Of a DNA stretch of 22,007 nucleotides, positions 2,191 through 21,739 are shown one piece after another; the stretch's first letter is position 1, and each line of letters begins with the position of its first letter. The position numbers were made by a program, and so were the translations under genes. The notes beneath the pieces are model-generated. The model was not told where the DNA came from. It made no database searches and worked only from the letters and a program-made list of their open reading frames with translations. This DNA is from Candidatus Omnitrophota bacterium (GTDB lineage: Bacteria > Omnitrophota > Gorgyraeia > 2-01-FULL-45-10): positions 1-22,007 of the forward strand of contig JAQURV010000016.1 in NCBI GenBank assembly GCA_029004355.1. The letters run 5' to 3'.

Positions 2191-2193
2191 GAT

Positions 2194-6444: not shown

Positions 6445-6448
6445 CCGG

Positions 6449-7896: not shown

Positions 7897-7899
7897 CTA

Positions 7900-8307
7900 T
7901 TAAAGCTCCTTGAGATACTTTTCTATCTCTGTTCTTATATATTGGTGAAAGGCGTCCTTGTTCCTCAGGTATTCCCATACCTTGGTGAGATTGTCGGATT
8001 TGATCTCCTTACCGCCCTTTACCAGAGAGAGTACGACGGATTTCGTATAAAGCTTGTACTCGTCCGTAAAATGTTCGTTACCTTTCGTTTCGACGTTGAC
8101 TACCTTAAAAACTACCGTGCCCGCATCCAATTCTTTCCGGAAATATTTCTCGACCGCCTCTTTCGTGTTCTGTTCGATCGTTTTGCAATTGACGCATCGG
8201 AAATTACCGTGAAAGTAATAGACTATCACGCTGTTTGCGGGAGCGGCTTCGCATACAAACGAAACGAATATGAGCGCCGCAACTAAAAGGAGCCGTGCGC
8301 GTTTCAT
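7900..8307 (-). CDS. Secreted thioredoxin/glutaredoxin-fold protein with a CVNC motif
   Basis: The true start is ATG 8307 ('MKRARLLLVAALIFVSFVCEA', signal peptide with AXA site) behind RBS GGGGGAG. The mature N-terminus 'VIVYYFHGNFRCVNCKTIEQNTKEAVEKY' matches the beta1-CxxC-alpha1 pattern of Grx/NrdH/ArsC-like folds. About 110 mature residues. Confidence 0.5.
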   Translation of the reverse strand: MKRARLLLVAALIFVSFVCEAAPANSVIVYYFHGNFRCVNCKTIEQNTKEAVEKYFRKELDAGTVVFKVVNVETKGNEHFTDEYKLYTKSVVLSLVKGGKEIKSDNLTKVWEYLRNKDAFHQYIRTEIEKYLKEL

Positions 8308-8543
8308 TTCTCCCCCGAGATCCATTTTTTTATTTCTTCCGCCTTGGGAATGCGGCCGTAGCATTTGATCTTGCCGTTAATGCGCAACCCCGGCGTCTGC
8401 ATAATACCCGCGTCCACTATCTTATTTATCTCTTTGACCTTTTCGACGTCCGCGACGATATTGAGTTCCGAAAGGACGCTCTTTACGCCCTTTTCAACCT
8501 CACCGCACCGATGGCATCCCGGCCCGAATATCTCTATCTTCAT
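8304..8543 (-). CDS. Small thioredoxin-family protein (TIGR00412-like redox-active disulfide protein 2), CHRC active site
   Basis: 'MKIEIFGPGCHRCGE...' followed by '...GIMQTPGLRINGKIKCYGRIPKAEEIKKWI' matches the ~78-aa TM0996/MTH895 family. The true start is ATG 8543 with RBS GGGGGGAGAG. Its stop overlaps the next start as ATGA. Confidence 0.75.
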   Translation of the reverse strand: MKIEIFGPGCHRCGEVEKGVKSVLSELNIVADVEKVKEINKIVDAGIMQTPGLRINGKIKCYGRIPKAEEIKKWISGEK

Positions 8544-8559
8544 CGTGCTCTCCCCCCTG

Positions 8560-9615
8560 TTAAAACCGCGGCACAAAAAACCAGAACACAAGACCTGCTA
8601 TAGTTCCGCATATCCACATAAGCGTCGCATATACCGCCGGAACGCGCGGCTTAACTATCTTGCATACCCCTAGTATCGAAGGCAGGCTTAAAGCCGGGCC
8701 CGTCAGAAGAAATGCCATCGCGGCGCCTGTTCCCATGCCGGACTCCAGGAACCCCCGGACGAGCGGTATCTCGACTAAGGTCGGGGTATACATGAATACG
8801 CCGATAGCCGAGGATAGCATGACCGGTAAAATGCCGTTGCCCAGGTATTTGATTATGACCGATGGGGGCAAAAATGCCTTTACGAGGCCCGCGCAGATAA
8901 CGCCCAAGAATATCAAAGGAAGCACCATCTTTACGAATTCCCACGAATACAATGCCATATTGACCAACCTCTTGCCAAAACCCTGATCTTCCTGCGATCC
9001 TCCATCGGCTTCCGTATCTATACGCACCGGTTCGGGTTCGGGAAGCCTGTTCTTAAAGATCCTGTCTGTGGTATATCCTACGAGGATCCCTGCCGTTACC
9101 GCAACCATAGCTCTTGCTACGGCAAACTTCCAGCCGAGAAGACCCAGAGTGAGCAGGATCGCTGCCGGGTTAAATGCGGGAGCGGCCAGAAGAAAGGTGA
9201 TCGCAGGACCAAGGCCTGCGCCTCTTTTATATAATCCCCCGAAGAGAGGAATGATGCTGCATGAGCACATCGAAAGGAGCGGCCCCCCGAGACCGGCCAC
9301 CGCGTACGGCGTAAAACCTCTGCCTGATCCCATAAGTTTGATGACTTTGTCTCTCGGCGCAAATTCCTGGAGCGCGCCGGCGGCTATAAAGGCCAGCAAA
9401 AGGCATAGCCATGAATGCTTTACATAGTCGATGATGGTAAAGACCAGGAACATGTGCACCGGTATCTTGTGCTCCTGCAAAAGTTGCGCGGTAATGACCT
9501 TGTTCTCGGCCATTGTGACCTTGACGCCCGTCCATGCCCCGGTCCATTCGTATACGATTATTACCGCGAAGATCAGGACCAGTATCGTTATCGCGAATAT
9601 CGTCCTTCTATCCAT
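8560..9615 (-). CDS. arsP: ArsP-like / DUF318 (YraQ) permease with a 'MCSCSIIP' motif
   Basis: About 8-10 TM helices with a two-repeat architecture. The Cys motif 'LSMCSCSIIPLF' resembles the ArsP 'TPFCSCSxxP' signature. It is paired with a TIGR00412-like thioredoxin immediately downstream. Confidence 0.7.
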   Translation of the reverse strand: MDRRTIFAITILVLIFAVIIVYEWTGAWTGVKVTMAENKVITAQLLQEHKIPVHMFLVFTIIDYVKHSWLCLLLAFIAAGALQEFAPRDKVIKLMGSGRGFTPYAVAGLGGPLLSMCSCSIIPLFGGLYKRGAGLGPAITFLLAAPAFNPAAILLTLGLLGWKFAVARAMVAVTAGILVGYTTDRIFKNRLPEPEPVRIDTEADGGSQEDQGFGKRLVNMALYSWEFVKMVLPLIFLGVICAGLVKAFLPPSVIIKYLGNGILPVMLSSAIGVFMYTPTLVEIPLVRGFLESGMGTGAAMAFLLTGPALSLPSILGVCKIVKPRVPAVYATLMWICGTIAGLVFWFFVPRF

Positions 9616-9617
9616 AA

Positions 9618-9920
9618 TTACCGTCTCTTCCTTGTTATTTTACAGCAGCCGCCCTCGATCCTTATAGCCTTGATATTGACCAGTCCGTCGGCGATCTTAT
9701 TGCGGGCGGATGATACGATCCTTGAGAATGTCGGTCTCGATATTTTGAGTCTTTTAGCCGCATCTATCTGTTTTAACCCGTCCAGATCGGCCAGCCTGAC
9801 GGCCTCAAATTCATCCAGGGTCAAACAGATACATTTAACCTTATTTAAGGGTTTGCAGATGGGCTTGAAACATCTCTCGCCCGGCAGGCATTTTATCCAT
9901 CTAGTCTTCTTCGGTCTCAT
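9618..9920 (-). CDS. DUF134 (UPF0251) predicted DNA-binding protein, Cys-rich; candidate operon regulator
   Basis: 'MRPKKTRWIKCLPGERCFKP...LTLDEFEAVRLADLDGLKQIDAAKRLKISRPTFSRIVSSARNKIADGLVNIKAIRIEGG' matches the DUF134 N-terminus plus a sigma-70 region-4-like HTH. It has seven Cys in 100 aa, including a vicinal 'GGCCK'. It is the first gene after the promoter/operator and sits 2 nt upstream of arsP. Confidence 0.65.
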   Translation of the reverse strand: MRPKKTRWIKCLPGERCFKPICKPLNKVKCICLTLDEFEAVRLADLDGLKQIDAAKRLKISRPTFSRIVSSARNKIADGLVNIKAIRIEGGCCKITRKRR

Positions 9921-9982
9921 CTATCCGCCATTATGAACATATGTTCATAATTAATTATACCACATCCCGGTGATTATGCAAA
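9921..9982 (-). promoter_or_regulatory. Sigma70-type promoter (TTGCAT-N16-TATAAT) with a perfect 20-bp palindromic operator over the +1 region
   Basis: The minus strand reads tTTGCATaatcaccgggatgtggTATAATtaaTTATGAACATATGTTCATAAtggcggatagATG. The -35 is at 9981-9976 and the -10 at 9959-9954. The palindrome TTATGAACATATGTTCATAA spans 9950-9931. The DUF134 ATG is at 9920. Confidence 0.55.
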
Positions 9983-11320
9983 TTATTTTTGGATCTTACG
10001 GAAGGCGTGCTTTATCTTTCTTTCCATTATGAAATCGTACCTAAGGTATAGACGCGTCCAGGCCGAGCGTTCCGTCGACATCCTGACGGCTTCGCGCAAA
10101 AACTCGTAGTCGACTCCTTTTATCTTAGGCAGGATGGGGGCGCGCGAGTAATCGCTGTGGGCCTTTATCAGAGAAAGGTCGTTCTTTATGCAGTAATCGT
10201 AAAGGTCGCTCCCCGGATGAGGCGTAAAGAACGCGGGGCTCATCCTGTACGGCTTTATCTTCCGTATCATCCTGACCGTATCCATGGCCTCTTCTCTTGT
10301 CTCCGTCGGGATCCCGAACATGTAGTTGGCCCACATCCTTATGCCGTGTTTCTTGCAGATCTTCGCGGCCCTGTAGTTCATCTCGGCGGTCGAGCCTTTT
10401 CTCAATAGTTTGAGTATGCGGTCGTTGCCGCTTTCGAAACCGATGAGGAACATGCCGAGGCCGGAGCTCTTCATGATCCTTATCATATCTTCGTTCTTGC
10501 AGATTATATCCGCCCTGCTCTGGCAAACGAACGGCGCCTTGAACCCGTTCTTTCTGTACTCTCTGCAGAATTTTTCGATCCAGCCCCTGTCTTCGGTAAG
10601 GCAGTCGTCGTGGAACATCATGCTTTGAAAATGATACCTGTCGCGGAGTTCGTTCAGTTCTTTGATTATATTGTCGACCGACCTGCGCCTTACCTTGTTC
10701 CCGAATATCTTGCGCTCGGCAGGCTGGCAGAAGCTGCAGTTGTAGATGCATCCCCTGCCCGCTATAAGCGTGACGAACGGCCTGTCCAGAAAGCTCTCTA
10801 TGGGCGATTCCTTGTAACGGAATAGTTCCCTGTCCGCGAAAGGAAGGCTGTTGAGGTCGGGGTGCTCGCCCGTTATCACCTTCTCCGCCGGGGCGCCCTT
10901 TTCGATATCCGCGAGCAGTTTTACAAAGCTCGTCTCCCCTTCGCCGATGATAATATGGTCGATGTAGTTATTCGATGTGAGTTCTTCCGGCATTATGCTG
11001 GGGTGCGGCCCGCCTATGACGACTTTTACGTTAGGCAGAGCTGCCTTGGCAGCCTTCGCCGCTTCAACGGCGTAGTCAAAATCGACGCTCATCATCGTTA
11101 TGGCTACGACGTCGGGAGAGAGTTCTTTCAGGTCCTTTTGAAAATCGTCCCACCCGGACAGCTCTCTTAGGTCTATGAGGTTCGTCAGGTGCCCGGCCCT
11201 TTTGGCGCAGGCGCTTAAATAGCAGAGTCCGTGGTGCAGCGAGCTAAAAGTTATAGGCTGCCTGGCCTTGGCAAAACCTGTTTCACCGACAGCCGGAAGC
11301 ACAAAGACTATCTTCAGCAT
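9983..11320 (-). CDS. Cobalamin-binding (class B) radical SAM enzyme
   Basis: The N-terminal Rossmann-like B12-binding region begins 'KIVFVLPAV...'. The radical SAM cluster motif is 'GRGCIYNCSFCQ' (CxxxCxxC), followed by 'GFESGNDRIL'. 445 aa. A TATAAT lies only 8-13 nt upstream of the ATG and there is no obvious SD. Confidence 0.85.
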   Translation of the reverse strand: MLKIVFVLPAVGETGFAKARQPITFSSLHHGLCYLSACAKRAGHLTNLIDLRELSGWDDFQKDLKELSPDVVAITMMSVDFDYAVEAAKAAKAALPNVKVVIGGPHPSIMPEELTSNNYIDHIIIGEGETSFVKLLADIEKGAPAEKVITGEHPDLNSLPFADRELFRYKESPIESFLDRPFVTLIAGRGCIYNCSFCQPAERKIFGNKVRRRSVDNIIKELNELRDRYHFQSMMFHDDCLTEDRGWIEKFCREYRKNGFKAPFVCQSRADIICKNEDMIRIMKSSGLGMFLIGFESGNDRILKLLRKGSTAEMNYRAAKICKKHGIRMWANYMFGIPTETREEAMDTVRMIRKIKPYRMSPAFFTPHPGSDLYDYCIKNDLSLIKAHSDYSRAPILPKIKGVDYEFLREAVRMSTERSAWTRLYLRYDFIMERKIKHAFRKIQK

Positions 11321-11346
11321 ATGCCAGTATTATAGAACAAAAAGGG

Positions 11347-11862
11347 CTATCCATACAAAGTTTTTAATTCTTCTACAGTCGGGTGCTCGGAATAATATTC
11401 ACCCTGCGGCCCGATAAATCCGTTGCCCGACCTTCTCAGCGTGATCGGCGTATAGCTGCCTTTAGAATTGGGGATATTGATAATCACCGTTCCCGGAGCG
11501 GTTGCCGTAATGGGTTGAGCCGCTTCTTGCGCGGCATAAAAGGGTTGGGTCACTACGGGCGGCAGGACAACGACGTAGCCCTGGGAGCAGGGCCTGTAAT
11601 AGACGCCGTCATAATAGTAGTAGGGCACACCCCTGACCACAACACTGCTGTGCCTCGGCGGCAAAGCCTCGACAATGGCGCCGGCGGTGAGGGCGGCCAC
11701 GGCAACGTCGAACCCGAGCCAACCGTGCTTATACCACCTTCCGCCGCAATAATAGTGCTTTTTGGAGTTGACGGGGCCCCACGCAAACGCTTCCTGGGAG
11801 CATAATACCATCAGAGAACAAATCACTATAGCTAACCGATATTTTAAGATATGTTTTAACAT
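11347..11862 (-). CDS. Secreted Tyr-rich hypothetical protein
   Basis: Signal peptide 'MLKHILKYRLAIVICSLMVLCSQEAFA'. Unusual Tyr-rich segments 'KKHYYCGGRWYKHGW' and 'VPYYYYDGVYYRPCSQGYVVVLPP'. The RBS AGGAGG precedes ATG 11862. Confidence 0.5.
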   Translation of the reverse strand: MLKHILKYRLAIVICSLMVLCSQEAFAWGPVNSKKHYYCGGRWYKHGWLGFDVAVAALTAGAIVEALPPRHSSVVVRGVPYYYYDGVYYRPCSQGYVVVLPPVVTQPFYAAQEAAQPITATAPGTVIINIPNSKGSYTPITLRRSGNGFIGPQGEYYSEHPTVEELKTLYG

Positions 11863-11917
11863 TTTTTGCCTCCTTTCAGGATATTAGACAACAAGGCAGG
11901 CAAAAAAGTTCCGCCGG

Positions 11918-12520
11918 CTACATTTCTAATCTCAATTCCTTATTTTTATATTGCAGTTTCACGGAGGTGCTTGTAATAGCGACAACCTTCGCGCTATCCA
12001 CTTCGTCGCCCACGGCTACGGTCTTACCGTTAATAATAGCCTTAGAGCCCATGATGCCTGCCAGCTCGAATTCACTTGCCGGTTTGGGCTGAGCGGCGGC
12101 GGCTGTTTTGGCCTTAGGCGATTTATCGAGTACTGCTTTCATGATGCCGGCGAAGGTCGGCGCGTTCCTGTATCCTACGACAGTATCCACGGTCTTGCCG
12201 GCCGCGCTGAAGAATATGACGGTGGGATATCCCCGCAGTTTATATTTTGAGAACGCGTTCTTATCGACCCCGCAATCCACCTTAACACAGATGAATCTTT
12301 CGGCCAGTTTATCCACGGTCTCATCCACATAAACATCTTCGTCGAGTTTTTTACACCAGCCGCACCATTCCGTGTAGAAATCGGCCATGACGGGTTTGCC
12401 TTCGGCCTTTGCCTTTTTGAACGCCCCGTCAAGGTCTGTTTCCCAGGAGATCGCCCAGGCCTCCGGACCCGAAGTCAGCACAAACGCGAATAATAGAAAC
12501 GCTGTTATGGTCTTTTTCAT
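11918..12520 (-). CDS. Secreted thioredoxin (CGWC active site)
   Basis: Signal peptide 'MKKTITAFLLFAFVLTSGPEAWA'. Canonical Trx motif 'FYTEWCGWCKKLD', with 'YPTVIFF' downstream. A C-terminal extension of about 70 aa follows. The start abuts the BASS gene stop as TAGATG, and the RBS AGGAAGG lies inside the upstream gene. Confidence 0.8.
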   Translation of the reverse strand: MKKTITAFLLFAFVLTSGPEAWAISWETDLDGAFKKAKAEGKPVMADFYTEWCGWCKKLDEDVYVDETVDKLAERFICVKVDCGVDKNAFSKYKLRGYPTVIFFSAAGKTVDTVVGYRNAPTFAGIMKAVLDKSPKAKTAAAAQPKPASEFELAGIMGSKAIINGKTVAVGDEVDSAKVVAITSTSVKLQYKNKELRLEM

Positions 12521-13471
12521 CTATGCGCCTTCCTGTTTTTCCGCCGGGTCAGGCATCCGGTTCCAGATGCTCGCCAATACGGCCGCGCTTATTATACACC
12601 ATGTGGCGAAGAGCGCATTGGGTATCGCGGCTTCCGCCGAGGCATATTTTATCGCAAGGACCGCGCCGAGGCCTGCGTTCTGCATGCCCACGCCTATGGC
12701 AAGCGTACGGCGCTGTTTCCGGTTGAATTTAAATAATATGCCCGCGCCGTAACCTAATACCAGCCCGGAGATATTGAGCAGGACCACCGAGATAAAGACA
12801 ATGACCGTGATGCCTCCAAGCGCTCCTCTGTTGAGCGCGACGACCAGGCCGCAGATGAAGGCTATGAATATCGTGGAGAACGCCGGGAATACGGGACGCA
12901 TCTTCTCGACGGGCCGTTTGAAATAATGCCGCGCGGTAAGGCCAAGGAAGAGCGGCACGATCACCATGAGCATGATGCTCTGCATCATGGGCCAGAACTG
13001 GATCGGCACGTATTCGTGGGCAAAGAAATACATGAGGGCCGGGGTAACGACCGGCGATATGAGCGTAGTACCCGTAGTGAGCGCGACCGACAGCGCGACA
13101 TCCGCCTCGGCTATGTATGACATAACGCCTGCCGCCATCGCGTCGGGGACGGCCCCCGCGAGGATGAGCCCGAAGGCAAGCGCCGGCGGGAGATCCAGGA
13201 GCCGCACTATGATAACCGCCGCGAGGGGCATGATGGTGAACTGCGCCAGTATTCCCAGGATAACGAGCCTCGGTTTTTTAAAGATGGGCTCGAAGTCTTT
13301 CACCGAAAGGAGCGCGCCTATGCCGAACATCGTTGCCGCGAAGAACCAGTCTATAAAAGGCTTGAGCGGGATAAAGGCTTGTGGGAAAAAGTAAGCCGCA
13401 GCCACGGCGATGACCACCCAGAATACGAGATAGTCCGTGAAATATTCGGCTATCCTGTTAATAAGATGCAT
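12521..13471 (-). CDS. Bile acid:sodium symporter (BASS/SBF) family transporter, in the BART superfamily like ACR3
   Basis: About 9-10 TM helices. Family-typical 'AIGVGMQNAGLGAVLA' and 'LILAGAVPDAMAAGVMS' segments. 316 aa. Confidence 0.75.
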   Translation of the reverse strand: MHLINRIAEYFTDYLVFWVVIAVAAAYFFPQAFIPLKPFIDWFFAATMFGIGALLSVKDFEPIFKKPRLVILGILAQFTIMPLAAVIIVRLLDLPPALAFGLILAGAVPDAMAAGVMSYIAEADVALSVALTTGTTLISPVVTPALMYFFAHEYVPIQFWPMMQSIMLMVIVPLFLGLTARHYFKRPVEKMRPVFPAFSTIFIAFICGLVVALNRGALGGITVIVFISVVLLNISGLVLGYGAGILFKFNRKQRRTLAIGVGMQNAGLGAVLAIKYASAEAAIPNALFATWCIISAAVLASIWNRMPDPAEKQEGA

Positions 13472-13484
13472 AGGGGCCCGGTTC

Positions 13485-13982
13485 TTAAGTTATGAACTGC
13501 GCCTTTACTTTAGGATGGATGAAATACATGATAACCGCCAGGTTAAATAATAAGGCTATGGTTATCGATATCACCATTATTACGTTGATCGACTTCTTTA
13601 CGGCCTCTTTCAGCCTGGCCATATCTACCTGGGCCGGCTTATAACCTTTCTTTTCGGCGGCAGCTTTGGCCGCGTCATTGAACTCCTGTTCGAATTGAGC
13701 CGAATAGACTTCACTGCCTTTCTTTATTGCGCTTGGCGCCGTTATCAAGGTCTCTGCCGATACCAATATCGCTATTACGATCACTCCTACGCGGGCCCAA
13801 TTCTTCAATTTTAATAAATAGACGGCCATTATGAAAGAGGCCGGCAGTATAATAAAATAGAAGTAATTCGAAAGCGGCGGGTTCACTTTTTGCGCTTCCG
13901 CGAGGCTCATGGCGCTCAGGACCGTCCCAATGATTATTACCCAGCTGAATATCGTCACTCCCGCAGGTCTCTTCTTATCCAT
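13485..13982 (-). CDS. Small polytopic membrane protein (hypothetical)
   Basis: Four predicted hydrophobic helices. The ATG at 13982 has RBS AAAGGGGG 5-12 nt upstream. The listed ORF begins one codon earlier at a GTG. No recognisable motif. Confidence 0.45.
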   Translation of the reverse strand: MDKKRPAGVTIFSWVIIIGTVLSAMSLAEAQKVNPPLSNYFYFIILPASFIMAVYLLKLKNWARVGVIVIAILVSAETLITAPSAIKKGSEVYSAQFEQEFNDAAKAAAEKKGYKPAQVDMARLKEAVKKSINVIMVISITIALLFNLAVIMYFIHPKVKAQFIT

Positions 13983-14016
13983 CACTGCCCCCTTTCCGCA
14001 TAATCCTTCGAGCTCT

Positions 14017-14541
14017 TTATTCCAGATCGTTCAGGATCTTTTTAATGACCTGAAATTCTTCTTTCGGGATAACGCCCGACCTGACGTAACGGACGGTCCC
14101 CGCCTTATCGATGATCAGGAAATTAGCCTCATCGACTGCCATGCCGTAGCTCTTTTCCATCGCGCCGTCCCAATCTCCGTATATGATAATGCCTTCTTTT
14201 CTGGAATTCTCGCGCAAACTCCGCTGCCATATGACCGGCATAAAAACCGAGCAGCGGATAACGGCTATCCTCATCACCTCTTTTTGTACCGCCGGAGATG
14301 ATCCCGCATAAAATGCATTCAGCTCCTCTTTAAGGGCCCTGTTCTTTTCTTTTGTATCTTTCGTTTCATAGAATATCGTGGCTACTTTATCTTTAAGCAT
14401 ATCGGATGTAAGGGTCTCGTTGCTGCCGGATACCACCCGAAAATACGGCGCTTTCTCCCCGTTGGTTATGCCGATTGCTGGGGCAGCCGATAAAACGATA
14501 AAGCATACGATTATTATAAATACGTTAAATAGTTTTGCCAA
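14017..14541 (-). CDS. Periplasmic thioredoxin-fold (redoxin/YtfJ-like) protein lacking a CxxC motif
   Basis: Signal-peptide-like 'AKLFNVFIIIVCFIVLSAAPAIG'. Redoxin-fold pattern ('KVATIFYETKDTK...', 'FLIIDKAGTVRYV'). The ORF contains no ATG start. The TTG at 14541 has an AAGGG RBS, whereas the TTG at 14586 has none. The boundary is uncertain by 45 nt. Confidence 0.45.
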   Translation of the reverse strand: MAKLFNVFIIIVCFIVLSAAPAIGITNGEKAPYFRVVSGSNETLTSDMLKDKVATIFYETKDTKEKNRALKEELNAFYAGSSPAVQKEVMRIAVIRCSVFMPVIWQRSLRENSRKEGIIIYGDWDGAMEKSYGMAVDEANFLIIDKAGTVRYVRSGVIPKEEFQVIKKILNDLE

Positions 14542-15091
14542 GGTTATAGGCCCTTTCGAGTAATTTAGCGTGTTTCTTAGCGTCAAAATCTGCGGCGCCT
14601 GTCGCCGTAAGCGTTTTTATCCTGACGTGCATATAATTGAAAAATGCCTTCATGGCCCGGACAGAACCCGTAACGATACCTAATAGATGGGAAAACGGAA
14701 AGGGCGCGTGACAGCTTGTTATCAGGATGACCTTACCCGGTTTTTTGGAAGGATAGACAGGGCCGAAGCGGAACTCTTTGAACATAGAATAGCCTCTGTC
14801 AAAAAATCTTTTGGCGCAGGAGGTCACATTGCTAAAATAGGTAGGCGAGCTAAAAACTACTATGTCGGCGTCCCGGATCTTGTCGGCAACGGCATTAAAA
14901 TCGTCTTCTATGATGCATCGCCCCGTTCGCTGGCAGGCGGAACAACCCCTGCATGGCTTTATTGTCAGATCCATAAAATAGATCTTCTCGGTAGAGGCGC
15001 CTCTGTCACGCAACCCATCGAGGGCAGATTCCGTTAATCTGTCGGTTACCTGCCCTTTTCTCGGTCCTGTTACGATCCCGATCGCTTTCAT
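14525..15091 (-). CDS. Iron-sulfur flavoprotein (Isf) / NAD(P)H-dependent FMN reductase family
   Basis: Flavodoxin-like 'MKAIGIVTGPRKGQVTD'. Compact cluster motif 'CRGCSACQRTGRC' (C-x2-C-x2-C-x5-C) typical of Isf. 'VFSSPTYFSNV' FMN-binding segment. ATG 15091 is preferred over GTG 15127, which would read through an AT-rich promoter-like tract. Confidence 0.7.
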   Translation of the reverse strand: MKAIGIVTGPRKGQVTDRLTESALDGLRDRGASTEKIYFMDLTIKPCRGCSACQRTGRCIIEDDFNAVADKIRDADIVVFSSPTYFSNVTSCAKRFFDRGYSMFKEFRFGPVYPSKKPGKVILITSCHAPFPFSHLLGIVTGSVRAMKAFFNYMHVRIKTLTATGAADFDAKKHAKLLERAYNLGKTI

Positions 15092-15260
15092 CTTTAAAAT
15101 AATTATAGCATATAAAAGAAAACCCACCTACCTTTTCCACTTCTCGTATATGCGGTAGATGGGCCAAACCCTACGAGGCTTATGGGCTACTGTCTAAATC
15201 CTCTCTCCCTTAGCCTCATATATAGTATAGCACATTTTTCGGTAAAATACAATGGTTCGG
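15092..15260 (-). promoter_or_regulatory. Intergenic region with two extended -10 promoters (TTGTAT-N16-TGcTATACT distal; TGcTATAAT 10 nt from the ATG)
   Basis: The minus strand reads ...cattgTTGTATtttaccgaaaaatgTGcTATACTatat... with the -10 at 15229-15224. It also reads ...tataTGcTATAATtattttaaagATG with the -10 at 15107-15102. No SD precedes the ATG, so the proximal promoter would give a near-leaderless mRNA. Confidence 0.4.
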
Positions 15261-16974: not shown

Positions 16975-17784
16975 TCAGAACGGGCTCTTGAATACCCCGC
17001 TCACGGCGTCTTTAGCTTTTGAGGCTGCTTCCGCGGCCTTCTGGGTCGTTTCGATGGCTGTCTTTGTCGCCTTTTGCGCCGTCTCGGAGGCCTGCGCGGT
17101 CATCTTCTGGGCGCTGGCAAGTGTCCCGGAAACCGAACCGCTCAAACCTTTGAGATCGAAATTGGCAAGGCCCGCTATGGAAGTGTTCATAAGGGCTTTT
17201 ACGACTATCAGGCTGACCAAAGTGTAGGGATTCGTTATGTTTGTATATTGCTCGTCTATATTGACATTGAATTCCTTTACGCTCGGTTCGCCGCCCCTGG
17301 AATAGTCCTTATAAACCACTTTGCCTATCTTTAAACGCAGCTTATCTATCTGTATCTCCGGGACTTTTCCGCCGGCCTTCTCCTGCGTCTTGCCGCCCGA
17401 TTTCTGGGCCTGCACGACCTTAAGCGAGTCGAGGTTCAGCTTGCCTTTTTCGTTTTTGACGACGGTGAATTCCCGCATATTTATGCGCGTTTCCGTCAAG
17501 TGGACCTTTCCTTTGAAGATGGCAGGCAGGTCATAATCTACATATATCTCCGGCATGTTGAGCATGTTCTTATCTTTGAAACCTGCGGGATTTAGTATGC
17601 GCAGGTTCCTTATGTCTACGAGGGTATTCAGCATCCCTATCCTGAATCCTCCGATCTTTAATTTCAGGCCGGTCACTATCTGCGTCCCGGATTCTACCGC
17701 TACCTTGATAACCAGGTCTTTGGCTATGCCCAAAATAAAGATAACTACCAATATCCCTACCGCTATAACCATCCACTTCTTCAT
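16975..17784 (-). CDS. Membrane-anchored hypothetical protein with a low-complexity C-terminal tail
   Basis: The true start is ATG 17784 ('MKKWMVIAVGILVVIFILGIA', N-terminal TM anchor) behind RBS GGGAGGTGG. The GTG at 17814 would read through the RBS. The C-terminal tail is rich in Ala/Thr/Gln/Lys. Confidence 0.5.
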   Translation of the reverse strand: MKKWMVIAVGILVVIFILGIAKDLVIKVAVESGTQIVTGLKLKIGGFRIGMLNTLVDIRNLRILNPAGFKDKNMLNMPEIYVDYDLPAIFKGKVHLTETRINMREFTVVKNEKGKLNLDSLKVVQAQKSGGKTQEKAGGKVPEIQIDKLRLKIGKVVYKDYSRGGEPSVKEFNVNIDEQYTNITNPYTLVSLIVVKALMNTSIAGLANFDLKGLSGSVSGTLASAQKMTAQASETAQKATKTAIETTQKAAEAASKAKDAVSGVFKSPF

Positions 17785-17814
17785 ATGCCACCTCCCGCTT
17801 ATCTTTATCCGCAC

Positions 17815-17838
17815 AAAAAAGCAGCCCTCGGGGCTGCT
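17815..17838 (-). terminator. Rho-independent terminator downstream of folE2
   Basis: The minus strand reads GCAGCCC-cga-GGGCTGC followed by TTTTTTgtg. That is a 7-bp GC-rich stem, a 3-nt loop and a U6 tract. It sits 60 nt past the FolE2 stop. Confidence 0.7.
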
Positions 17839-17897: not shown

Positions 17898-18680
17898 CTA
17901 TTCGCTGTAGCTTACGGACGGGATCCACATGCTCTTCTCTGTAGAGATCACGGTGCTGTAGGAGTGGAGCATACCAAAATTGGAGCAGCGGATCGAATAC
18001 CAGTTGATCGCGCTGTTATGCATCAATTCGTTCTTTATCTCGTCTGTCATGACCACGCTGGTCTTTTTTTCGGAATGTATCTTTTGAATGACAAAACCCT
18101 GGTCTTCTTTTGTTAAAAACGAATAGACGGGGACAAGCGCATGCTTATCTACGATCTTTACAAGATCTTCCGGATATATGTCCCGCTGAGATTCTACTTC
18201 GATCTCCGCTACGCTCAACTGGCCGAACAAGCCTCCCGCTCTCTCCGGATCGGAAACAGGATACGTGGTAATGGCCGGGACTTGCATTTTAAAAATGATC
18301 CTTGCCTTGTTTTCGACCGAAGAGATCTTGGCGGAGTAAGTGCACATATATCTTACCAGGCATTTTTCCCTGGAAACGGGGGTAAGTTTTTCTATAAAAT
18401 ACGGGTAATCGAAGTCGATCCTGATGGTCGATGCGTGCAGTTTTTTAAGATAGTCCTTTATATTCGTCTTCAGCGTCTTCGTCCCTATCCTGTCTCTGTG
18501 TTTATGGACTATTTCGATAAATCTATCTATCCACCCTGACTCGAACTCGTGCATTATGCGCGCGCTTATCGATATATTCGCTACGGTGAACTGGCCTTCC
18601 GCCTTTACTTTCGAAACGACTTTCATGGGAAAAGGCAGGTTCTTCATGCCTACATCTACGAGATATCTTTTTTCTTTCAT
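17898..18680 (-). CDS. folE2: GTP cyclohydrolase FolE2/MptA family (type IB)
   Basis: The N-terminal 'YLVDVGMKNLPFPMKV' fits the family's 'RVGVxxLxxPV' signature. About 260 aa. Cys/His are spaced as in FolE2 ('REKCLVRYMCTY'). The RBS AAGGAGA precedes the start. Confidence 0.55.
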   Translation of the reverse strand: MKEKRYLVDVGMKNLPFPMKVVSKVKAEGQFTVANISISARIMHEFESGWIDRFIEIVHKHRDRIGTKTLKTNIKDYLKKLHASTIRIDFDYPYFIEKLTPVSREKCLVRYMCTYSAKISSVENKARIIFKMQVPAITTYPVSDPERAGGLFGQLSVAEIEVESQRDIYPEDLVKIVDKHALVPVYSFLTKEDQGFVIQKIHSEKKTSVVMTDEIKNELMHNSAINWYSIRCSNFGMLHSYSTVISTEKSMWIPSVSYSE

Positions 18681-18684
18681 AATA

Positions 18685-19710
18685 TCATGTCTCCTTATCG
18701 TGTGCCAGCGCGATAGCCTTTTCGCTCAACATCTTCCATTTATCATATTGTAAATAAAGGCCTTTTATCTTCGAATTGCCTTTACTCAGGATCGTCCTGC
18801 CGTCCGTTTTTCTTATTTTTATTCTACTCTTAAATCCAAGAAAGTCAAGAAGATGGCATATTCTCAAAATGAGCGTTTTTGTGTTCTTTGCGTTATCTGC
18901 GGTGAAGACTATCGCATCTATGCCTCCCAGGACAGAGATAAACGCCCCTGTATATCTCGCGATATGATATTTCAATATTTCCGGCGCCTGATCGGGAAGG
19001 CAGTTTAGGCCGCTTCCCCTGGACAACAGATCGTTTATCCGCTCAAACGACATCCCTTCCGCGTTAAGCTGAAAAATGATCGTAGGGTCGATATCGCCGC
19101 ATGCGGTTTGCGACGGTATGCCCTCCACCGAGGTAAACCCTACCGTTGTCTCTACGGGGGCCCCGTTCTTTATGGCCGCTATATTGGCGGCGTTCCCCAG
19201 ATATACGGATATTACTTTTTGAACGCCCCTGCCAAATACCCGCCTGGCTTCCTCCCATGCCCGCTCGTGACATAGCCCATAACCTCCGTACCGCCTGACG
19301 CCTTTTTTACTCAGCTCATATGGTATAGCATAGGTGCTGGCCTTGTCGGGAAGACATATGAAAAAAGACGTATCGCAAAATAGCACGTGACGGTGGTCCG
19401 CGAATTCCATCGACAGGTATTTCGCCATCTTGTAGATAATACTATTATGCTCCGGCAGGAATCTAACGCACTTCTCCATCCTGGCCAGCGATCGGCCGGT
19501 CAATATGCTGACGGGTTTGTCTATCTCCTCTCCGCCGTTAGGCAATAGATAGCCGAAGAGGATCCTTTCGCCGTTATTTTCTTTCGCTATTTTCTGCCGG
19601 ACCTTATCAAAGCATGATCCGCCGAATATAATTCTATCGCGCGATGAACGCCCGTTCTTTACGGTACGCCATCGTATGAACGGCGGATCCGGTTCGAATA
19701 TTATTATCAT
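18685..19710 (-). CDS. Acetate-kinase-family paralog with degenerate catalytic residues (probable pseudo-kinase)
   Basis: Aligns to AckA via 'VKNGRSS' (cf. NCGSSS), 'RRYGGYGLCHE' (cf. KYGFHGxSH), 'VYLGNAANIAAIKNG', 'TACGDIDP' (Arg to Ala) and 'VLGGIDAIVFTA'. The 'FCDTSFF' segment replaces 'FDTAFH', losing the His. It is about 60 aa shorter than AckA. Its start overlaps the upstream ackA stop as ATGA. Confidence 0.7.
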   Translation of the reverse strand: MIIIFEPDPPFIRWRTVKNGRSSRDRIIFGGSCFDKVRQKIAKENNGERILFGYLLPNGGEEIDKPVSILTGRSLARMEKCVRFLPEHNSIIYKMAKYLSMEFADHRHVLFCDTSFFICLPDKASTYAIPYELSKKGVRRYGGYGLCHERAWEEARRVFGRGVQKVISVYLGNAANIAAIKNGAPVETTVGFTSVEGIPSQTACGDIDPTIIFQLNAEGMSFERINDLLSRGSGLNCLPDQAPEILKYHIARYTGAFISVLGGIDAIVFTADNAKNTKTLILRICHLLDFLGFKSRIKIRKTDGRTILSKGNSKIKGLYLQYDKWKMLSEKAIALAHDKET

Positions 19711-20912
19711 CTTTTTGCCTTTAACAGCTTCAGGCCCTCTAAACAGATGGCCAGTTCTTCCTCGGCAGGAATAGAGACTATCTTGACGCTGGCATTTTTC
19801 GCATTCAATACAGAGATGACATTGCCGACGGCCTTACGGTTCAGCCTTTTATCCAGAACTATACCGCACCATTCCATCTCCCGACACACCTTCTCTCTTA
19901 TAAGAGGGTTCCGGAGGCCTATATCGTCCGTGAATACCAGTGCGTCGATGCCCCCGAGTATCGTTATATAGCTGCCGATGTATTTTTTCAAACGGTGTAT
20001 ATACATCTCCAGGGCCAGCCCCGCCTGCTCCTCCTCTGTGGATATACGATGGATGATGTCGCGTATATCGCTTGAGAACCCGGATATCCCCAACAGTCCA
20101 CTGTCTTTGTTGAGCATATCCATAAGCTGGTCTGGCCTGTAGCCGTATGTCGCCATCAGATATATGGCGAGCATCGGGTCTATGTCCCCGCAGCGCGTGC
20201 TCATCATAAGCCCGGGCAGAGGCGAATAACCCATGGAATTGTCGAGTGATATGCCGCCGTTTATCGCGGCGACACTTGATCCTCCGGTCCCCAGGTGACA
20301 TGCCACCATCTTTACTTTTTCCGGCGGCCGTTTTAGTATCCCGGGAACGGTCTTGGCCACATACGAGTAAGAGAGTCCGTGAAAACCATATTTTCTGAAT
20401 CCGAATCTTTTTCTTATTTTTTCAGGCAGGGCATACGTATACGCGTAATACGGTATTGTTGAATGGAACGCGGTATCGAACGTCACATACTGTTTTATGC
20501 GGGGAAATCGTTTAGAGCACTCCCGCATCACTGCCAGCGTGACGGGGTTATGGATCGGCGCAAGCGGCAGGCATAGATACAGCTTATTTAAGACATTCCT
20601 GTCGATAAAGACCGATCTGCTGAAGTAGGCGCCGCCGTTCACGAACCGGTGGCCTATATAGTCTATGCCGATATCGCTCTCACTTAGGTGCCGCAATATC
20701 AGGATAGCCGCCTGGTCATGGCTCTTTATAGGCACTACATCTTTCCGTACGCTTTGCTGAAAACGATGCTCTATAAAGGACGGTTCTTTGCCTTTTACGC
20801 CTACCCTGTGGGCCTTTCCGGATATTATTTCCTTCTGATCTTTCGACGCGGCTATACCGAAGACGTTATATGTCAGCGATGAACTTCCGCAATTGAAGAC
20901 TAAGATATTCAA
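19707..20912 (-). CDS. ackA: Acetate (or propionate/butyrate) kinase, canonical
   Basis: 'ILVFNCGSSSL', 'GHRFVNGG', 'FDTAFHST', 'KYGFHGLSY', 'CHLGTGGSSVAAINGG', 'STRCGDIDP' and 'IPAEEELAI' are all conserved. The start is TTG, with GGAG 8-11 nt upstream. Confidence 0.85.
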   Translation of the reverse strand: MNILVFNCGSSSLTYNVFGIAASKDQKEIISGKAHRVGVKGKEPSFIEHRFQQSVRKDVVPIKSHDQAAILILRHLSESDIGIDYIGHRFVNGGAYFSRSVFIDRNVLNKLYLCLPLAPIHNPVTLAVMRECSKRFPRIKQYVTFDTAFHSTIPYYAYTYALPEKIRKRFGFRKYGFHGLSYSYVAKTVPGILKRPPEKVKMVACHLGTGGSSVAAINGGISLDNSMGYSPLPGLMMSTRCGDIDPMLAIYLMATYGYRPDQLMDMLNKDSGLLGISGFSSDIRDIIHRISTEEEQAGLALEMYIHRLKKYIGSYITILGGIDALVFTDDIGLRNPLIREKVCREMEWCGIVLDKRLNRKAVGNVISVLNAKNASVKIVSIPAEEELAICLEGLKLLKAKR

Positions 20913-20956: not shown

Positions 20957-21739
20957 CTAGTTAACGCCGAGAACCTGCATGAACATTTTCGGTTCTATGC
21001 GCCCGCTTCCGGTAAACGGAAAACCGAATGACAATATCGTAAGTAATATGAGCGCTATCGTCACGCCCAACGCGGAGGCCATTATCGCATGGTTAATAAA
21101 TTTATCCGAACCGAAAAAGAACGTAAAGCTTATGGTGGTCAGCGCGCCTACCAACAGGACGAACCATAATACGGGATGGACGCCCGTCCTTGAATCTATT
21201 ATCCGCAATCTTCTCATTTCGCGCAGGCCGTCAAGCTTATCTATAGATTCGGCGTAAAATATATTCTCCTTCTCTGATTTTGGTTCGTATTTTACGTAGA
21301 GCTCCCACATTTTTCTCAATGCCTCGCGCGCTTTCGCGTTCTCCTCGCCGCGGCTCAGGGATTCCCATTCCTCGAGTATAACGGTTTTCCCGTATTCTTT
21401 TATAACCGCGCGGGCTTCGGTCTCAAATGTTTTCCCAAACGCGGCGCTGGACCTGAAAATATCCACCAGGCAATTGGCTTCCGTTTCCGTGTGCGATACG
21501 GCCTTGTCATAATTTTGCCACGCTACGACCACCACAAAAGCCAGTAATACCGTATAGGCCAGCGCGATCGCCTGGAATATAGCGTTGGTCAGATCATTGT
21601 GCGACTTCAATATGTTGCGCGGGACGAACTTCCACACGAGCCAAAGCCCCACTATGGACAACGCTACCGCAAGAAAGACCATGATCATGCCCAGGGGGAT
21701 TATGGGTATGTAGAATAATATCTTTTGAGTGATCGGCAT
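20957..21739 (-). CDS. Integral membrane protein (DUF4239-like, 2+2 TM helices around a soluble middle region)
   Basis: Two N-terminal and two C-terminal hydrophobic helices flank a charged helical core. The strong RBS GAGGAGG precedes the start. The family assignment is from memory of the architecture only. Confidence 0.4.
   Translation of the reverse strand: MPITQKILFYIPIIPLGMIMVFLAVALSIVGLWLVWKFVPRNILKSHNDLTNAIFQAIALAYTVLLAFVVVVAWQNYDKAVSHTETEANCLVDIFRSSAAFGKTFETEARAVIKEYGKTVILEEWESLSRGEENAKAREALRKMWELYVKYEPKSEKENIFYAESIDKLDGLREMRRLRIIDSRTGVHPVLWFVLLVGALTTISFTFFFGSDKFINHAIMASALGVTIALILLTILSFGFPFTGSGRIEPKMFMQVLGVN

What the first reader, a model, noticed from the sequence alone, without database searches (positions are those of the whole stretch)
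18685..20912. Tandem acetate kinase genes in which the downstream copy has lost catalytic Arg and His (pseudo-kinase partner?)
The upstream copy (19707-20912, TTG start) retains every AckA signature. The downstream copy is overlapped by ATGA and aligns along its length. However, it has 'TACGDIDP' instead of 'TRCGDIDP' (the catalytic Arg is Ala), 'FCDTSFF' instead of 'FDTAFH' (the His is lost) and a degenerate 'VKNGRSS' in place of the 'NCGSSS' phosphate-binding loop. It is also about 60 aa shorter. AckA is an obligate dimer. A co-translated inactive paralog suggests a regulatory heterodimer or a repurposed ASKHA-fold protein.
Basis: seen in the sequence. Interest (0 to 1): 0.65.

Follow-up and report, generated by a model that had tools for sequence, protein, structure and literature searches.

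The report
Acetate kinase, dead paralog, dead FolE2
The two adjacent acetate-kinase genes are real, but they are two-thirds of a conserved, undescribed three-gene unit found in at least 15 bacterial phyla: an Entamoeba-type (probably pyrophosphate-linked) acetate kinase, a kinase-dead copy of it, and a GTP-cyclohydrolase-fold protein that has also lost its catalytic residues.

Summary
ORF 19707-20912(-) is a full acetate kinase (ACK). ORF 18685-19710(-) overlaps it by ATGA, is 28% identical, 60 aa shorter, and lacks Arg91, His180, Arg241, Glu384, the PHOSPHATE1 loop and the ADENOSINE motif.

Three corrections:
- The upstream kinase does not carry every AckA signature. It is the Entamoeba histolytica type: HLGTGGSS, and FTDDIG where ATP enzymes have FTAGxGEN.
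- The true P-loop equivalent in the short copy is FEPDPPFIRW, not VKNGRSS.
- The pair is part of a triad. The next gene (17898-18680) has the FolE2 fold, but its metal ligands Cys/His/Glu are replaced by Tyr/Phe/Gln.

The triad recurs, tightly coupled and with unrelated flanks, in about 55 species-level MAGs from at least 15 phyla. It was found whether I searched from the short copy or from the full kinase (6 of 6). The short copy is therefore an old, selected family and not a decaying duplicate. Its former catalytic positions are no more conserved than background, whereas dimer-interface pocket positions tend to be kept (non-significant trend).

Best reading (about 0.45): a non-catalytic ACK-fold subunit in a multi-protein acetyl-phosphate/PPi kinase module. 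No publication describing it was found. The heterodimer itself is untested.

The parts
19707..20912 (-). Catalytic subunit: EhACK-type acetate kinase, 401 aa, TTG start
   Evidence: PF00871 scores 373 bits and TIGR00016 scores 380, above the cutoff of 293. The best PDB match is 4H0O, E. histolytica ACK, at E = 4.8e-106, ahead of ATP-dependent ACKs. N7, GSSS, R91, D148, F179, H180, H208, R241, E384 and E385 are kept in 52/52 cassette homologs. N211->T occurs in 52/52, there is an extra Gly in PHOSPHATE2, A/G330->D in 52/52 and G331->D in 51/52. It groups with EhACK in an NJ tree.
18685..19710 (-). Degenerate ACK-fold paralog ('short ACK'), 341 aa, predicted to be kinase-dead
   Evidence: PF00871 scores 156 bits; TIGR00016 scores 149, below the cutoff of 293. 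The AF2 model has pLDDT 86.7 and its Foldseek top hits are all ACKs, TM 0.72-0.81. Family-wide substitutions (n = 52): GSSS->xPPx, R91->V/L/F, F179->G, H180->Y/F/Q, R241->G/S/A, E384->K, E385->W, G331->E and others. D148 is kept in 52/52 and L122->E occurs in 50/52. Catalytic columns are not conserved above background.
17898..18680 (-). Degenerate FolE2-fold (T-fold) protein, 260 aa; third and most conserved member of the unit
   Evidence: PF02649 scores 99.5 bits, but NF010200 (FolE2) scores 79.8, below the cutoff of 215. The AF2 model against 2R5R/FolE2 structures gives TM 0.86 and rmsd 2.1 A. FolE2 metal ligands are replaced: C147->Y in 51/56, H159->F in 54/56, E201->Q in 51/56. Further losses are E216->V, E243->G, H248->Y and R162->L, and GTHMSR becomes xAxWIDx (ligand identities from PMC11573665). 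Identity is 63-88% among the top 120 homologs.
19707..19710 (-). ATGA stop/start overlap between the full and short ACK genes (translational coupling)
   Evidence: The sequence reads ...AAA AGA TGA with the ATG of the short copy embedded. The same 4-nt overlap or a gap of 3 nt or less occurs in relatives (gene calls).
18681..18696 (-). Junction between the short ACK and the FolE2-like gene: AAGGAG Shine-Dalgarno (18696-18691), TGA stop (18687-18685), 4-nt spacer, ATG at 18680
   Evidence: Read directly from the sequence.
17820..17838 (-). Intrinsic-terminator-like hairpin (8-bp stem, 6 GC pairs, T-run) closing the unit after the FolE2-like gene
   Evidence: This is a consensus match only.

Best explanation
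The tandem ACK genes are the first two genes of a self-contained, translationally coupled three-gene module.

Gene 1 is a catalytically competent acetate kinase of the Entamoeba histolytica type. Its acetate and phosphoryl-transfer residues are intact. Its nucleotide pocket is remodelled in the way that excludes ATP in EhACK. It therefore most likely interconverts acetyl phosphate and acetate with Pi/PPi, or another non-adenylate partner, rather than ADP/ATP.

Gene 2, the finding's 'pseudo-kinase', keeps the ACK fold and the dimer-interface pocket but has lost every element needed for phosphoryl transfer. It most likely acts as a non-catalytic subunit. It could replace one protomer of the obligate ACK dimer, or it could bridge the kinase to gene 3.

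Gene 3 keeps the FolE2 tunnelling fold but has lost the metal site and the catalytic acid/base residues. It is the most conserved of the three and probably forms the oligomeric core or a ligand-sensing part of the assembly.

Shown here: gene structure, homology, residue losses, fold retention, strict co-occurrence and co-evolution of the three genes, and occasional linkage to ordinary ackA and phosphoketolase.

Inferred, not shown: PPi/Pi use by gene 1, physical association of the three proteins, and a regulatory or scaffolding role for genes 2 and 3.
For: - Homology and degeneracy.
- EhACK-type hallmarks, as defined by Dang & Ingram-Smith 2017 (PMC5517563): the extra Gly in PHOSPHATE2 and Asp-Asp in ADENOSINE, exactly as in their bacterial 'putative PPi-ACKs'. 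EhACK is on average 46.6% identical to cassette kinases and 37.4% to ordinary ones, and it groups with them in the tree.
- Strict triad: every GTDB locus with room shows kinase, then short copy, then FolE2-like gene. Four loci have the order FolE2-like, kinase, short copy. Flanks are unrelated.
- Converse test: 6 of 6 cassette-type kinases chosen independently are followed by the same two genes.
- Overlapping or nearly abutting reading frames (and the gene calls above).
- Distance matrices of the three proteins correlate at r = 0.80-0.89.
- Catalytic columns of the short copy are relaxed: 0.51 against 0.55 background, p = 0.76. In real ACKs they score 0.90-0.93, p < 1e-4. Interface-pocket positions (R176, E/D225, T226, S/T227, G258, Y307, K/R311) are kept: 0.66 against 0.54, p = 0.06 (positions from PMC3475010).
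- One Sumerlaeota MAG (L012) encodes the short copy and the FolE2-like protein as a single 653-aa ORF.
- The only recurrent neighbour is an ordinary ackA (9 of 57 loci), followed by a phosphoketolase in 3 loci (Pfam-confirmed in one, L035). This links the module to acetyl phosphate.
- The acetate-pocket residues V93, I/L122, F179 and P232 are kept in the cassette kinase.
Against: - No direct evidence of a complex.
- EhACK works alone in vitro as a PPi-ACK (PMC5517563), so partners are not chemically required.
- The bacterial kinases have Asp where EhACK has Gln323, and their phosphoryl partner is unknown.
- The FolE2-like protein is extraordinarily conserved: 68 invariant columns of 260. It has a remodelled but fixed pocket (Y, F, Q, V, G, with Q161, S163, D200, N241 and H246 retained). 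That looks more like a specific ligand or active site than a passive scaffold.
- The short copy fixes a new Glu at position 122 and keeps Asp148, which could mark a new site.
- Anaerolineaceae, reported to have EhACK-like kinases, did not appear among the short-copy loci. The pairing may therefore not be universal, although the scan used only two peptide patterns.
- The single gene fusion could be a sequencing error.
Confidence: 0.45

Rival explanations
1. Neo-functionalised enzymes. The short ACK-fold protein and/or the FolE2-fold protein have acquired new catalytic activities. With the kinase they would form a short, unknown small-molecule pathway, for example activation of a carboxylate as an acyl phosphate followed by conversion on the T-fold protein. 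They would not be a regulatory or scaffold complex.
For: - The FolE2-like protein is the most conserved of the three: mean p-distance 0.39 against 0.44 and 0.59, and 63-88% identity across phyla.
- It has many invariant polar residues (H59, H61, E97, K98, C113, Q154, D193, Q194, H239, Y241, W252).
- Part of the FolE2 pocket is retained (Q161, S163, D200, N241, H246, K107).
- The short copy fixes Glu at position 122 (50/52), Asn at 214 (47/52) and Trp at 385 (50/52), and keeps Asp148 (52/52).
Against: - Former active-site columns of the short copy are, as a set, no more conserved than background.
- The FolE2 metal ligands and acid/base residues are replaced largely by hydrophobic or small residues (Y, F, L, V, G), with Glu201 becoming Gln. 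That fills a pocket rather than rebuilding a polar one.
- No further pathway genes are conserved around the triad.
- The kinase keeps an acetate-sized hydrophobic pocket.
Confidence: 0.3
2. The short copy is still an active kinase. Its catalytic residues would be supplied from shifted positions, or in trans by the partner subunit.
For: The ACK fold is intact. Asp148 is invariant, and Asn, Asp or Glu is found at positions 7 and 211.
Against: - The alignment is unambiguous around R91, H180 and R241, because the flanking motifs GxxxxHGG, RRYGxxG and CGDIDP are conserved.
- No basic residue is conserved nearby.
- The PHOSPHATE1 glycine/serine loop is replaced by prolines.
- The ADENOSINE and LOOP4 regions are the least conserved part of the protein, at 0.19-0.52. 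In the window's own clade part of LOOP4 is deleted.
Confidence: 0.05
3. The short copy is a decaying duplicate (pseudogene) of the upstream kinase, and the adjacency has no functional meaning.
For: It is shorter and has lost its catalytic residues. Some relatives show split genes: L005/L023, L007, L026, L035, L071 and L086.
Against: - The ORF is intact and its N-terminus is conserved in 51 non-redundant sequences from at least 15 phyla, at 30-95% pairwise identity.
- It forms its own clade and is not closer to its neighbour than to ordinary ACKs.
- It co-evolves with both neighbours.
- The split genes mostly affect the full kinase. Where several genes are split on one contig, as in L086, assembly error is the likelier cause.
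Confidence: 0.02

Closest known systems
Entamoeba histolytica acetate kinase (EhACK, PDB 4H0O), the only characterised PPi/Pi-dependent ACK, and the uncharacterised 'putative PPi-ACKs' of Anaerolineaceae (Dang & Ingram-Smith 2017, PMC5517563)
   Same: The upstream gene shares the complete catalytic set. It also shares the extended PHOSPHATE2 loop (HLGTGGSS) and an ADENOSINE motif starting with Asp in place of Ala/Gly-Gly-Ile. It has the Asp-Asp variant described for the bacterial look-alikes. 4H0O is its best PDB match, and it groups with EhACK in a tree.
   Different: EhACK has Gln323-Met324 where the cassette kinases have Asp-Ile. EhACK is known as a stand-alone enzyme. Here the kinase is always encoded with two degenerate partner proteins that the paper read here (PMC5517563) and my literature searches do not mention. 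The phosphoryl partner of the bacterial enzymes has not been measured.
Ordinary acetate/propionate kinases (AckA, TdcD, PduW; PF00871, TIGR00016), e.g. M. thermophila 1G99/1TUY and T. maritima 2IIR
   Same: The short copy has the same two-domain ASKHA/ACK fold, recognisable sequence homology (E = 1e-45 to Pfam), the DTxF strand with Asp148, the GDIDP motif and the interface-pocket residues.
   Different: It lacks Asn7, the GSSS loop, Arg91, His180, Arg241, Glu384/385 and the GxGEN adenosine motif. It scores below the TIGR00016 cutoff. It is about 40-60 aa shorter, mainly through deletions in domain I, and in the window's clade also in LOOP4.
GTP cyclohydrolase IB (FolE2; PDB 3D2O, 5K95, 8G6C) and DUF198 protein NE1163 (2R5R)
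   Same: The third gene has the same bimodular T-fold (TM 0.86, rmsd 2.1 A). It keeps a subset of conserved pocket residues: Q39, T41, K107, Q161, S163, D200, N241 and H246.
   Different: Metal ligands Cys147, His159 and Glu201 are replaced by Tyr, Phe and Gln. Cys149, Arg162, His164, Glu216, Glu243, His248 and the GTHMSR motif are lost. It scores far below the NCBIfam FolE2 cutoff. Public annotation still calls it 'GTP cyclohydrolase, FolE2/MptA family'.
ASKHA pseudoenzyme partners such as TsaB (YeaZ) with TsaD in t6A synthesis (from my own knowledge, not tested here)
   Same: An inactive ASKHA-fold paralog that has lost nucleotide binding, working together with a catalytically active paralog.
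   Different: It belongs to a different ASKHA family. No heterodimer has been shown here. The triad also includes an unrelated degenerate T-fold protein.

Membership tests
Acetate/propionate kinase (EC 2.7.2.1/2.7.2.15): short copy, 18685-19710 | Sequence and fold homology to PF00871 | tested here: met
   PF00871 scores 156 bits against a cutoff of 22. The AF2 model matches ACK structures at TM 0.72-0.81.
Acetate/propionate kinase (EC 2.7.2.1/2.7.2.15): short copy, 18685-19710 | Passes the curated NCBIfam TIGR00016 cutoff | tested here: not met
   Scores 149.4 bits against a cutoff of 293.4.
Acetate/propionate kinase (EC 2.7.2.1/2.7.2.15): short copy, 18685-19710 | PHOSPHATE1 loop N7-x-G-S-S-S-x-K | tested here: not met
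   Reads FEPDPPFIRW. Family-wide the pattern is D/N/E-P-x-P-P.
Acetate/propionate kinase (EC 2.7.2.1/2.7.2.15): short copy, 18685-19710 | Catalytic Arg91, His180 and Arg241 | tested here: not met
   Leu, Tyr and Ala in the window. V/L/F, Y/F/Q and G/S/A in 52 homologs.
Acetate/propionate kinase (EC 2.7.2.1/2.7.2.15): short copy, 18685-19710 | Mg ligand Glu384 and the ADENOSINE motif G331-I332-x-x-N335 | tested here: not met
   E384->K and E385->W (50/52). The ADENOSINE region is variable, with conservation of 0.23-0.52.
Acetate/propionate kinase (EC 2.7.2.1/2.7.2.15): short copy, 18685-19710 | Essential Asp148 | tested here: met
   Asp in 52/52.
EhACK-type (putative PPi/Pi-dependent) acetate kinase: full copy, 19707-20912 | Complete ACK catalytic set; passes TIGR00016 | tested here: met
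   Scores 380 bits against a cutoff of 293. N7, GSSS, R91, D148, H180, R241 and E384 are all present.
EhACK-type (putative PPi/Pi-dependent) acetate kinase: full copy, 19707-20912 | Extended PHOSPHATE2 loop with an additional Gly, and Thr in place of Asn211 | tested here: met
   CHLGTGGSS, identical to EhACK, in 52/52 cassette kinases.
EhACK-type (putative PPi/Pi-dependent) acetate kinase: full copy, 19707-20912 | ADENOSINE motif with Asp at position 330 and a non-Gly residue at 331 | tested here: met
   FTDDIG. D330 in 52/52 and D331 in 51/52. This is the bacterial Asp-Asp variant described in PMC5517563.
EhACK-type (putative PPi/Pi-dependent) acetate kinase: full copy, 19707-20912 | Uses Pi/PPi and not ADP/ATP | not testable with these tools
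   Needs enzyme assays. Not measured for any bacterial member in the papers found.
GTP cyclohydrolase IB (FolE2): 17898-18680 | FolE2 bimodular T-fold | tested here: met
   Foldseek against 2R5R and 8G8V: TM 0.85-0.86, rmsd 2.1-2.5 A.
GTP cyclohydrolase IB (FolE2): 17898-18680 | Passes the NCBIfam FolE2 equivalog cutoff | tested here: not met
   NF010200 scores 79.8 bits against a cutoff of 215.
GTP cyclohydrolase IB (FolE2): 17898-18680 | Metal ligands Cys147, His159 and Glu201 (N. gonorrhoeae numbering) | tested here: not met
   Tyr in 51/56, Phe in 54/56 and Gln in 51/56. Ligand identities come from PMC11573665.
GTP cyclohydrolase IB (FolE2): 17898-18680 | Catalytic base Glu243 and His248 | tested here: not met
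   Gly in 54/56 and Tyr in 51/56. His246 is kept.
Pseudoenzyme partner of an active paralog (works like TsaB-TsaD) | Inactive paralog consistently co-encoded with an active one | tested here: met
   All loci with room, and 6 of 6 in the converse test.
Pseudoenzyme partner of an active paralog (works like TsaB-TsaD) | Physical heterodimer or complex with the active paralog | not testable with these tools
   Only indirect hints are available: kept interface-pocket residues, co-evolution and one fusion of the short copy with the FolE2-like protein.
Known anti-phage defence systems (PADLOC) | Match to any PADLOC model | tested here: not met
   No hit for any of the three proteins.

The most novel reading that the evidence does not exclude
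The triad encodes a previously unrecognised hetero-oligomeric enzyme. An Entamoeba-type acetate kinase would work only, or differently, when assembled with two dedicated pseudoenzymes: a dead ACK protomer and a dead FolE2 T-fold oligomer. The assembly would couple acetyl phosphate to pyrophosphate or to an as yet unknown phosphoryl acceptor in anaerobic bacteria of many phyla. The stand-alone Entamoeba PPi-ACK would then be related to, and possibly derived from, this bacterial module.
Probability: 0.3. Interest if true: 0.8.

Novelty: new variant of a known kind. Interest (0 to 1): 0.66.

Why it matters
- EhACK is the only known PPi-dependent acetate kinase, and its physiological role is still debated (PMC9983610). 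Its bacterial relatives have never been characterised. Showing that they come, in the phyla sampled here, as a fixed triad with two degenerate partners gives a concrete genetic context. It also gives a testable hypothesis for what this enzyme class does.
- It would be a dedicated pseudoenzyme partner in the acetate-kinase family; none turned up in my literature searches. It would also be a rare case of two unrelated pseudoenzymes locked to one catalytic subunit.
- There is a practical consequence. The third gene is annotated in public MAGs as 'GTP cyclohydrolase FolE2', and the first as an ordinary ATP acetate kinase. Metabolic reconstructions of folate synthesis and of ATP yield from acetate formation in Omnitrophota, Planctomycetota, Ignavibacteriota and others may therefore be wrong.

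Tried and rejected
The family alignment places the P-loop at FEPDPPFIRW.
- Recent tandem duplication is rejected. The short family is equally distant from cassette kinases (24.1%) and ordinary ACKs (25.7%), and it lacks the cassette-specific extra Gly.
- Pseudogene is rejected on conservation and co-evolution.
- Defence system: there are no PADLOC hits.
- Further conserved neighbours: clustering of 344 flanking ORFs from 57 loci found only an ordinary ackA (9 loci), a lineage-restricted PRC-barrel protein (6 loci) and phosphoketolase (3 loci). In the window, the upstream bestrophin-like gene and the downstream DUF748 gene are not conserved partners.
- Literature: searches for acetate kinase with FolE2, with pseudokinase/paralog, for 'PPi-dependent acetate kinase', and for the Anaerolineaceae enzymes found no description of the triad.
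- Not used: the exhaustive representative search. E-value bands would not separate the short family from ordinary ACKs.
Full report
**1. The observation**

Both ORFs are present on the minus strand at the stated coordinates.

- The upstream ORF (19707-20912, 401 aa, TTG start preceded by GGAG) is a full-length acetate kinase. PF00871 scores 373 bits, and TIGR00016 scores 380 against a cutoff of 293.
- The downstream ORF (18685-19710, 341 aa) starts at an ATG embedded in ATGA with the upstream stop. It matches PF00871 at 156 bits, but it falls below the curated TIGR00016 cutoff (149 against 293).
- The two proteins align over 293 residues at 28% identity, E = 9e-31.
- Alignment to M. thermophila ACK (1TUU/1G99), whose numbering I verified from the printed alignments, gives Arg91->Leu, Phe179->Gly, His180->Tyr, His208->Tyr and Arg241->Ala. 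Asp148 is retained.

The His of FDTAFH is His152, not the catalytic His180, although His180 is lost as well. The proposed P-loop remnant VKNGRSS is a mis-alignment. The PHOSPHATE1 loop FNCGSSSLTY corresponds to FEPDPPFIRW at residues 5-14.

**2. The upstream kinase is not an ordinary AckA**

Its best solved relative is 4H0O, the Entamoeba histolytica enzyme (E = 4.8e-106). T. maritima scores 1e-90 and M. thermophila 2e-84.

Dang & Ingram-Smith (PMC5517563) define what sets the PPi/Pi-dependent EhACK apart:

- a PHOSPHATE2 loop lengthened by one Gly;
- an ADENOSINE motif in which Ala/Gly-Gly331-Ile332 is replaced by Asp-Gln-Met, which occludes the adenosine pocket.

They also note a handful of bacterial look-alikes with Asp-Asp at these positions and an unknown phosphoryl partner. 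The window protein reads CHLGTGGSS and FTDDIGLRN, which is exactly that bacterial variant.

In 52 homologs from the same gene arrangement:

- the catalytic set (N7, GSSS, R91, D148, F179, H180, H208, R241, E384, E385) is invariant;
- N211->T occurs in 52/52, G239->S in 51/52, A/G330->D in 52/52 and G331->D in 51/52;
- the hydrophobic acetate pocket (V93, I/L122, F179, P232) is kept.

EhACK is on average 46.6% identical to these kinases and 37.4% to ordinary ACKs. It joins their clade in a neighbour-joining tree.

**3. The short copy is an old, selected family**

- A search with the short copy returned 217 clusters of proteins of about 330-380 aa, from 72% down to 35% identity.
- A scan of one genome per GTDB species found it in about 55 MAGs. 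These came from Omnitrophota, Sumerlaeota, Auribacterota, Spirochaetota, Ignavibacteriota, Bacteroidota, Myxococcota, Planctomycetota, Actinomycetota (Thermoleophilia), Kiritimatiellia, Verrucomicrobiota, Lentisphaerota, Acidobacteriota, Aminicenantes, Elusimicrobiota, Latescibacterota and Raymondbacteria. None is a cultured isolate.
- The N-terminus MILLFDPxPPxLRW is conserved, so the start and the shortening are genuine.
- The losses are family-wide: GSSS->xPPx, R91->V/L/F, H180->Y/F/Q, R241->G/S/A, E384->K and E385->W (50/52). Asp148 is kept in 52/52, and a new Glu at position 122 is fixed in 50/52.
- An AlphaFold model (pLDDT 86.7) matches ACK structures at TM 0.72-0.81.
- The family forms its own clade. 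It is as far from the cassette kinases (24.1%) as from ordinary ACKs (25.7%). It keeps the ordinary LGN loop without the extra Gly. It is therefore not a recent duplicate of its neighbour.

**4. A third gene belongs to the unit**

The next ORF (17898-18680) starts 4 nt after the stop of the short copy, behind an AAGGAG Shine-Dalgarno. A strong terminator-like hairpin follows it at 17838-17820.

- It matches PF02649 (FolE2) at 99.5 bits, but the NCBIfam FolE2 equivalog at only 79.8 against a cutoff of 215.
- Its model superposes on FolE2 structures at TM 0.86 and rmsd 2.1 A.
- The FolE2 metal ligands are Cys, His and Glu (PMC11573665). Here they are Tyr (51/56), Phe (54/56) and Gln (51/56).
- Cys149, Arg162, His164, Glu216, Glu243, His248 and the GTHMSR motif are also replaced.
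- Yet this is the most conserved of the three proteins. It is 63-88% identical across the top 120 homologs, with 68 invariant columns of 260.

**5. The three genes form a strict module**

- In every locus with enough sequence, the order is cassette-type kinase, short copy, FolE2-like gene. Four loci have the order FolE2-like, kinase, short copy. Flanking genes are unrelated.
- Starting instead from six independently chosen cassette-type kinases, all six are followed by the same two genes.
- Reading frames overlap by 4 nt or are separated by a few bases.
- Pairwise distance matrices of the three proteins correlate at r = 0.80-0.89. Mean divergence is lowest for the FolE2-like protein (0.39), then the kinase (0.44), then the short copy (0.59).
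- In one Sumerlaeota MAG the short copy and the FolE2-like protein are read as a single 653-aa ORF. This is a lone case and could be an error.
- Clustering 344 flanking ORFs found only one widely recurrent neighbour. It is an ordinary ackA in 9 of 57 loci, followed in 3 loci by a phosphoketolase, which produces acetyl phosphate; Pfam confirmed it in one of them, L035.

**6. How it most likely works**

Two conservation tests bear on the role of the short copy.

- Twenty-five positions line the ACK active site. In ordinary ACKs they score 0.93 against 0.57 background, and in cassette kinases 0.90 against 0.66 (both p < 1e-4). In the short family they score 0.51 against 0.55 (p = 0.76). The nucleotide and beta-phosphate part is the most variable.
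- Twelve positions line the dimer-interface pocket described for Salmonella AckA (PMC3475010). They are kept about as well in the short family (0.66 against 0.54, p = 0.06) as in real ACKs. This is a trend, not a significant result.

Relaxed catalytic positions with a maintained interface fit a non-catalytic protomer or adaptor. Together with the coupling to an EhACK-type kinase and the occasional linkage to ackA and xfp, my best reading is a multi-subunit acetyl-phosphate/PPi (or other non-adenylate) phosphotransferase. The kinase would supply the chemistry, and the two degenerate proteins would supply assembly, regulation or ligand sensing.

The association and the PPi use are inferences, so I put this at about 0.45.

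The main rival, at about 0.3, is that the FolE2-like protein and perhaps the short copy have become new enzymes of an unknown pathway. The extreme conservation and the fixed, partly retained pocket of the FolE2-like protein argue for it. Against it, the catalytic residues are replaced mainly by hydrophobic ones, and no further pathway genes are conserved nearby.

**7. Comparison with what is known, and novelty**

- The kinase is a member of the EhACK-type subgroup by every sequence criterion tested. Its donor specificity is untested.
- The short copy belongs to the ACK superfamily by fold, but fails every catalytic criterion and the curated family cutoff.
- The third protein has the FolE2 fold, but fails the metal-ligand, catalytic-residue and cutoff criteria.
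- The arrangement resembles ASKHA pseudoenzyme partnerships such as TsaB-TsaD. That comparison is from my own knowledge and was not tested here.
- Four literature searches found no description of the triad.

I rate it a new variant of a known kind. It is a conserved, uncharacterised module built around a rare kinase type. It is interesting because it offers a handle on the unresolved biology of PPi-type acetate kinases, and because current annotations of its members are misleading.

**8. Limits**

- All members are from MAGs.
- Some loci show split genes that may be assembly errors.
- The tree is neighbour-joining on 351 columns.
- The Anaerolineaceae isolates reported to carry EhACK-like kinases could not be inspected. 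They did not appear in the scan based on the short copy, so the pairing may not be universal.
- No multimer model or experiment was possible.

Noticed in passing
window 5386-15127 (minus strand): A run of genes resembling an arsenic or metalloid resistance/methylation cluster. It contains an ArsP-type permease (8560-9615), two SBF/ACR3-like transporters (5386-6444 and 12521-13471), a SAM methyltransferase (6449-7525), a B12-binding radical-SAM protein (9983-11320), a DsbD-like protein (7222-7896), a thioredoxin (11918-12520) and an FMN reductase (14525-15127).
   Followed up: no
window 20957-21739 (-): A bestrophin-like membrane protein (PF14023, 188 bits) ends 44 nt upstream of the kinase start and may be co-transcribed with it. 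It is not found next to the triad in other loci.
   Followed up: partly
L012 4911-6869 (Sumerlaeota MAG CAZSMK010000021.1): The short ACK and the FolE2-like protein are read as one 653-aa ORF with the linker ...HQAGGIRKM..., so the stop codon is missing. This is either a natural fusion or a sequencing error.
   Followed up: partly
L028-L030, L035 (Ignavibacteria/Bacteroidota); also L001, L048, L053, L054, L057: An ordinary ATP-type ackA lies within 0.1-4 kb of the triad, immediately after it in L028-30 and L035. Flank clustering finds a phosphoketolase-like ORF after that ackA in 3 loci; Pfam confirmed it in L035 (XFP_N, 564 bits).
   Followed up: partly
L007 3779-5001; L005/L023; L026; L035; L071; L086: The cassette kinase, and in L071 and L086 also the short copy, is split into two ORFs in several MAGs. 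This includes L007, a close GTDB relative of the window. The cause could be frameshift errors or real gene decay; L086 also has other split genes.
   Followed up: no
window 17898-18680 and homologs P0241-P0360: Public records name this protein 'GTP cyclohydrolase, FolE2/MptA family' or 'GTP cyclohydrolase I', although the metal ligands and catalytic residues are absent. This is a likely source of false folate-pathway calls in MAG reconstructions.
   Followed up: yes
window 18685-19710 compared with other family members: The window's Omnitrophota clade (P0001-P0012) has an extra deletion of about 17 aa in the LOOP4 region: SGLNCLPDQAPEIL where other members have SGFSGLLGKKCSFLDIL...REIL.
   Followed up: partly
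window 1-4045 (+) and 16975-17814 (-): A GAF-PAS histidine kinase, a response regulator and a hybrid kinase sit at the left end of the window. A DUF748/TIGR03545-like protein lies just downstream of the terminator of the triad.
   Followed up: no
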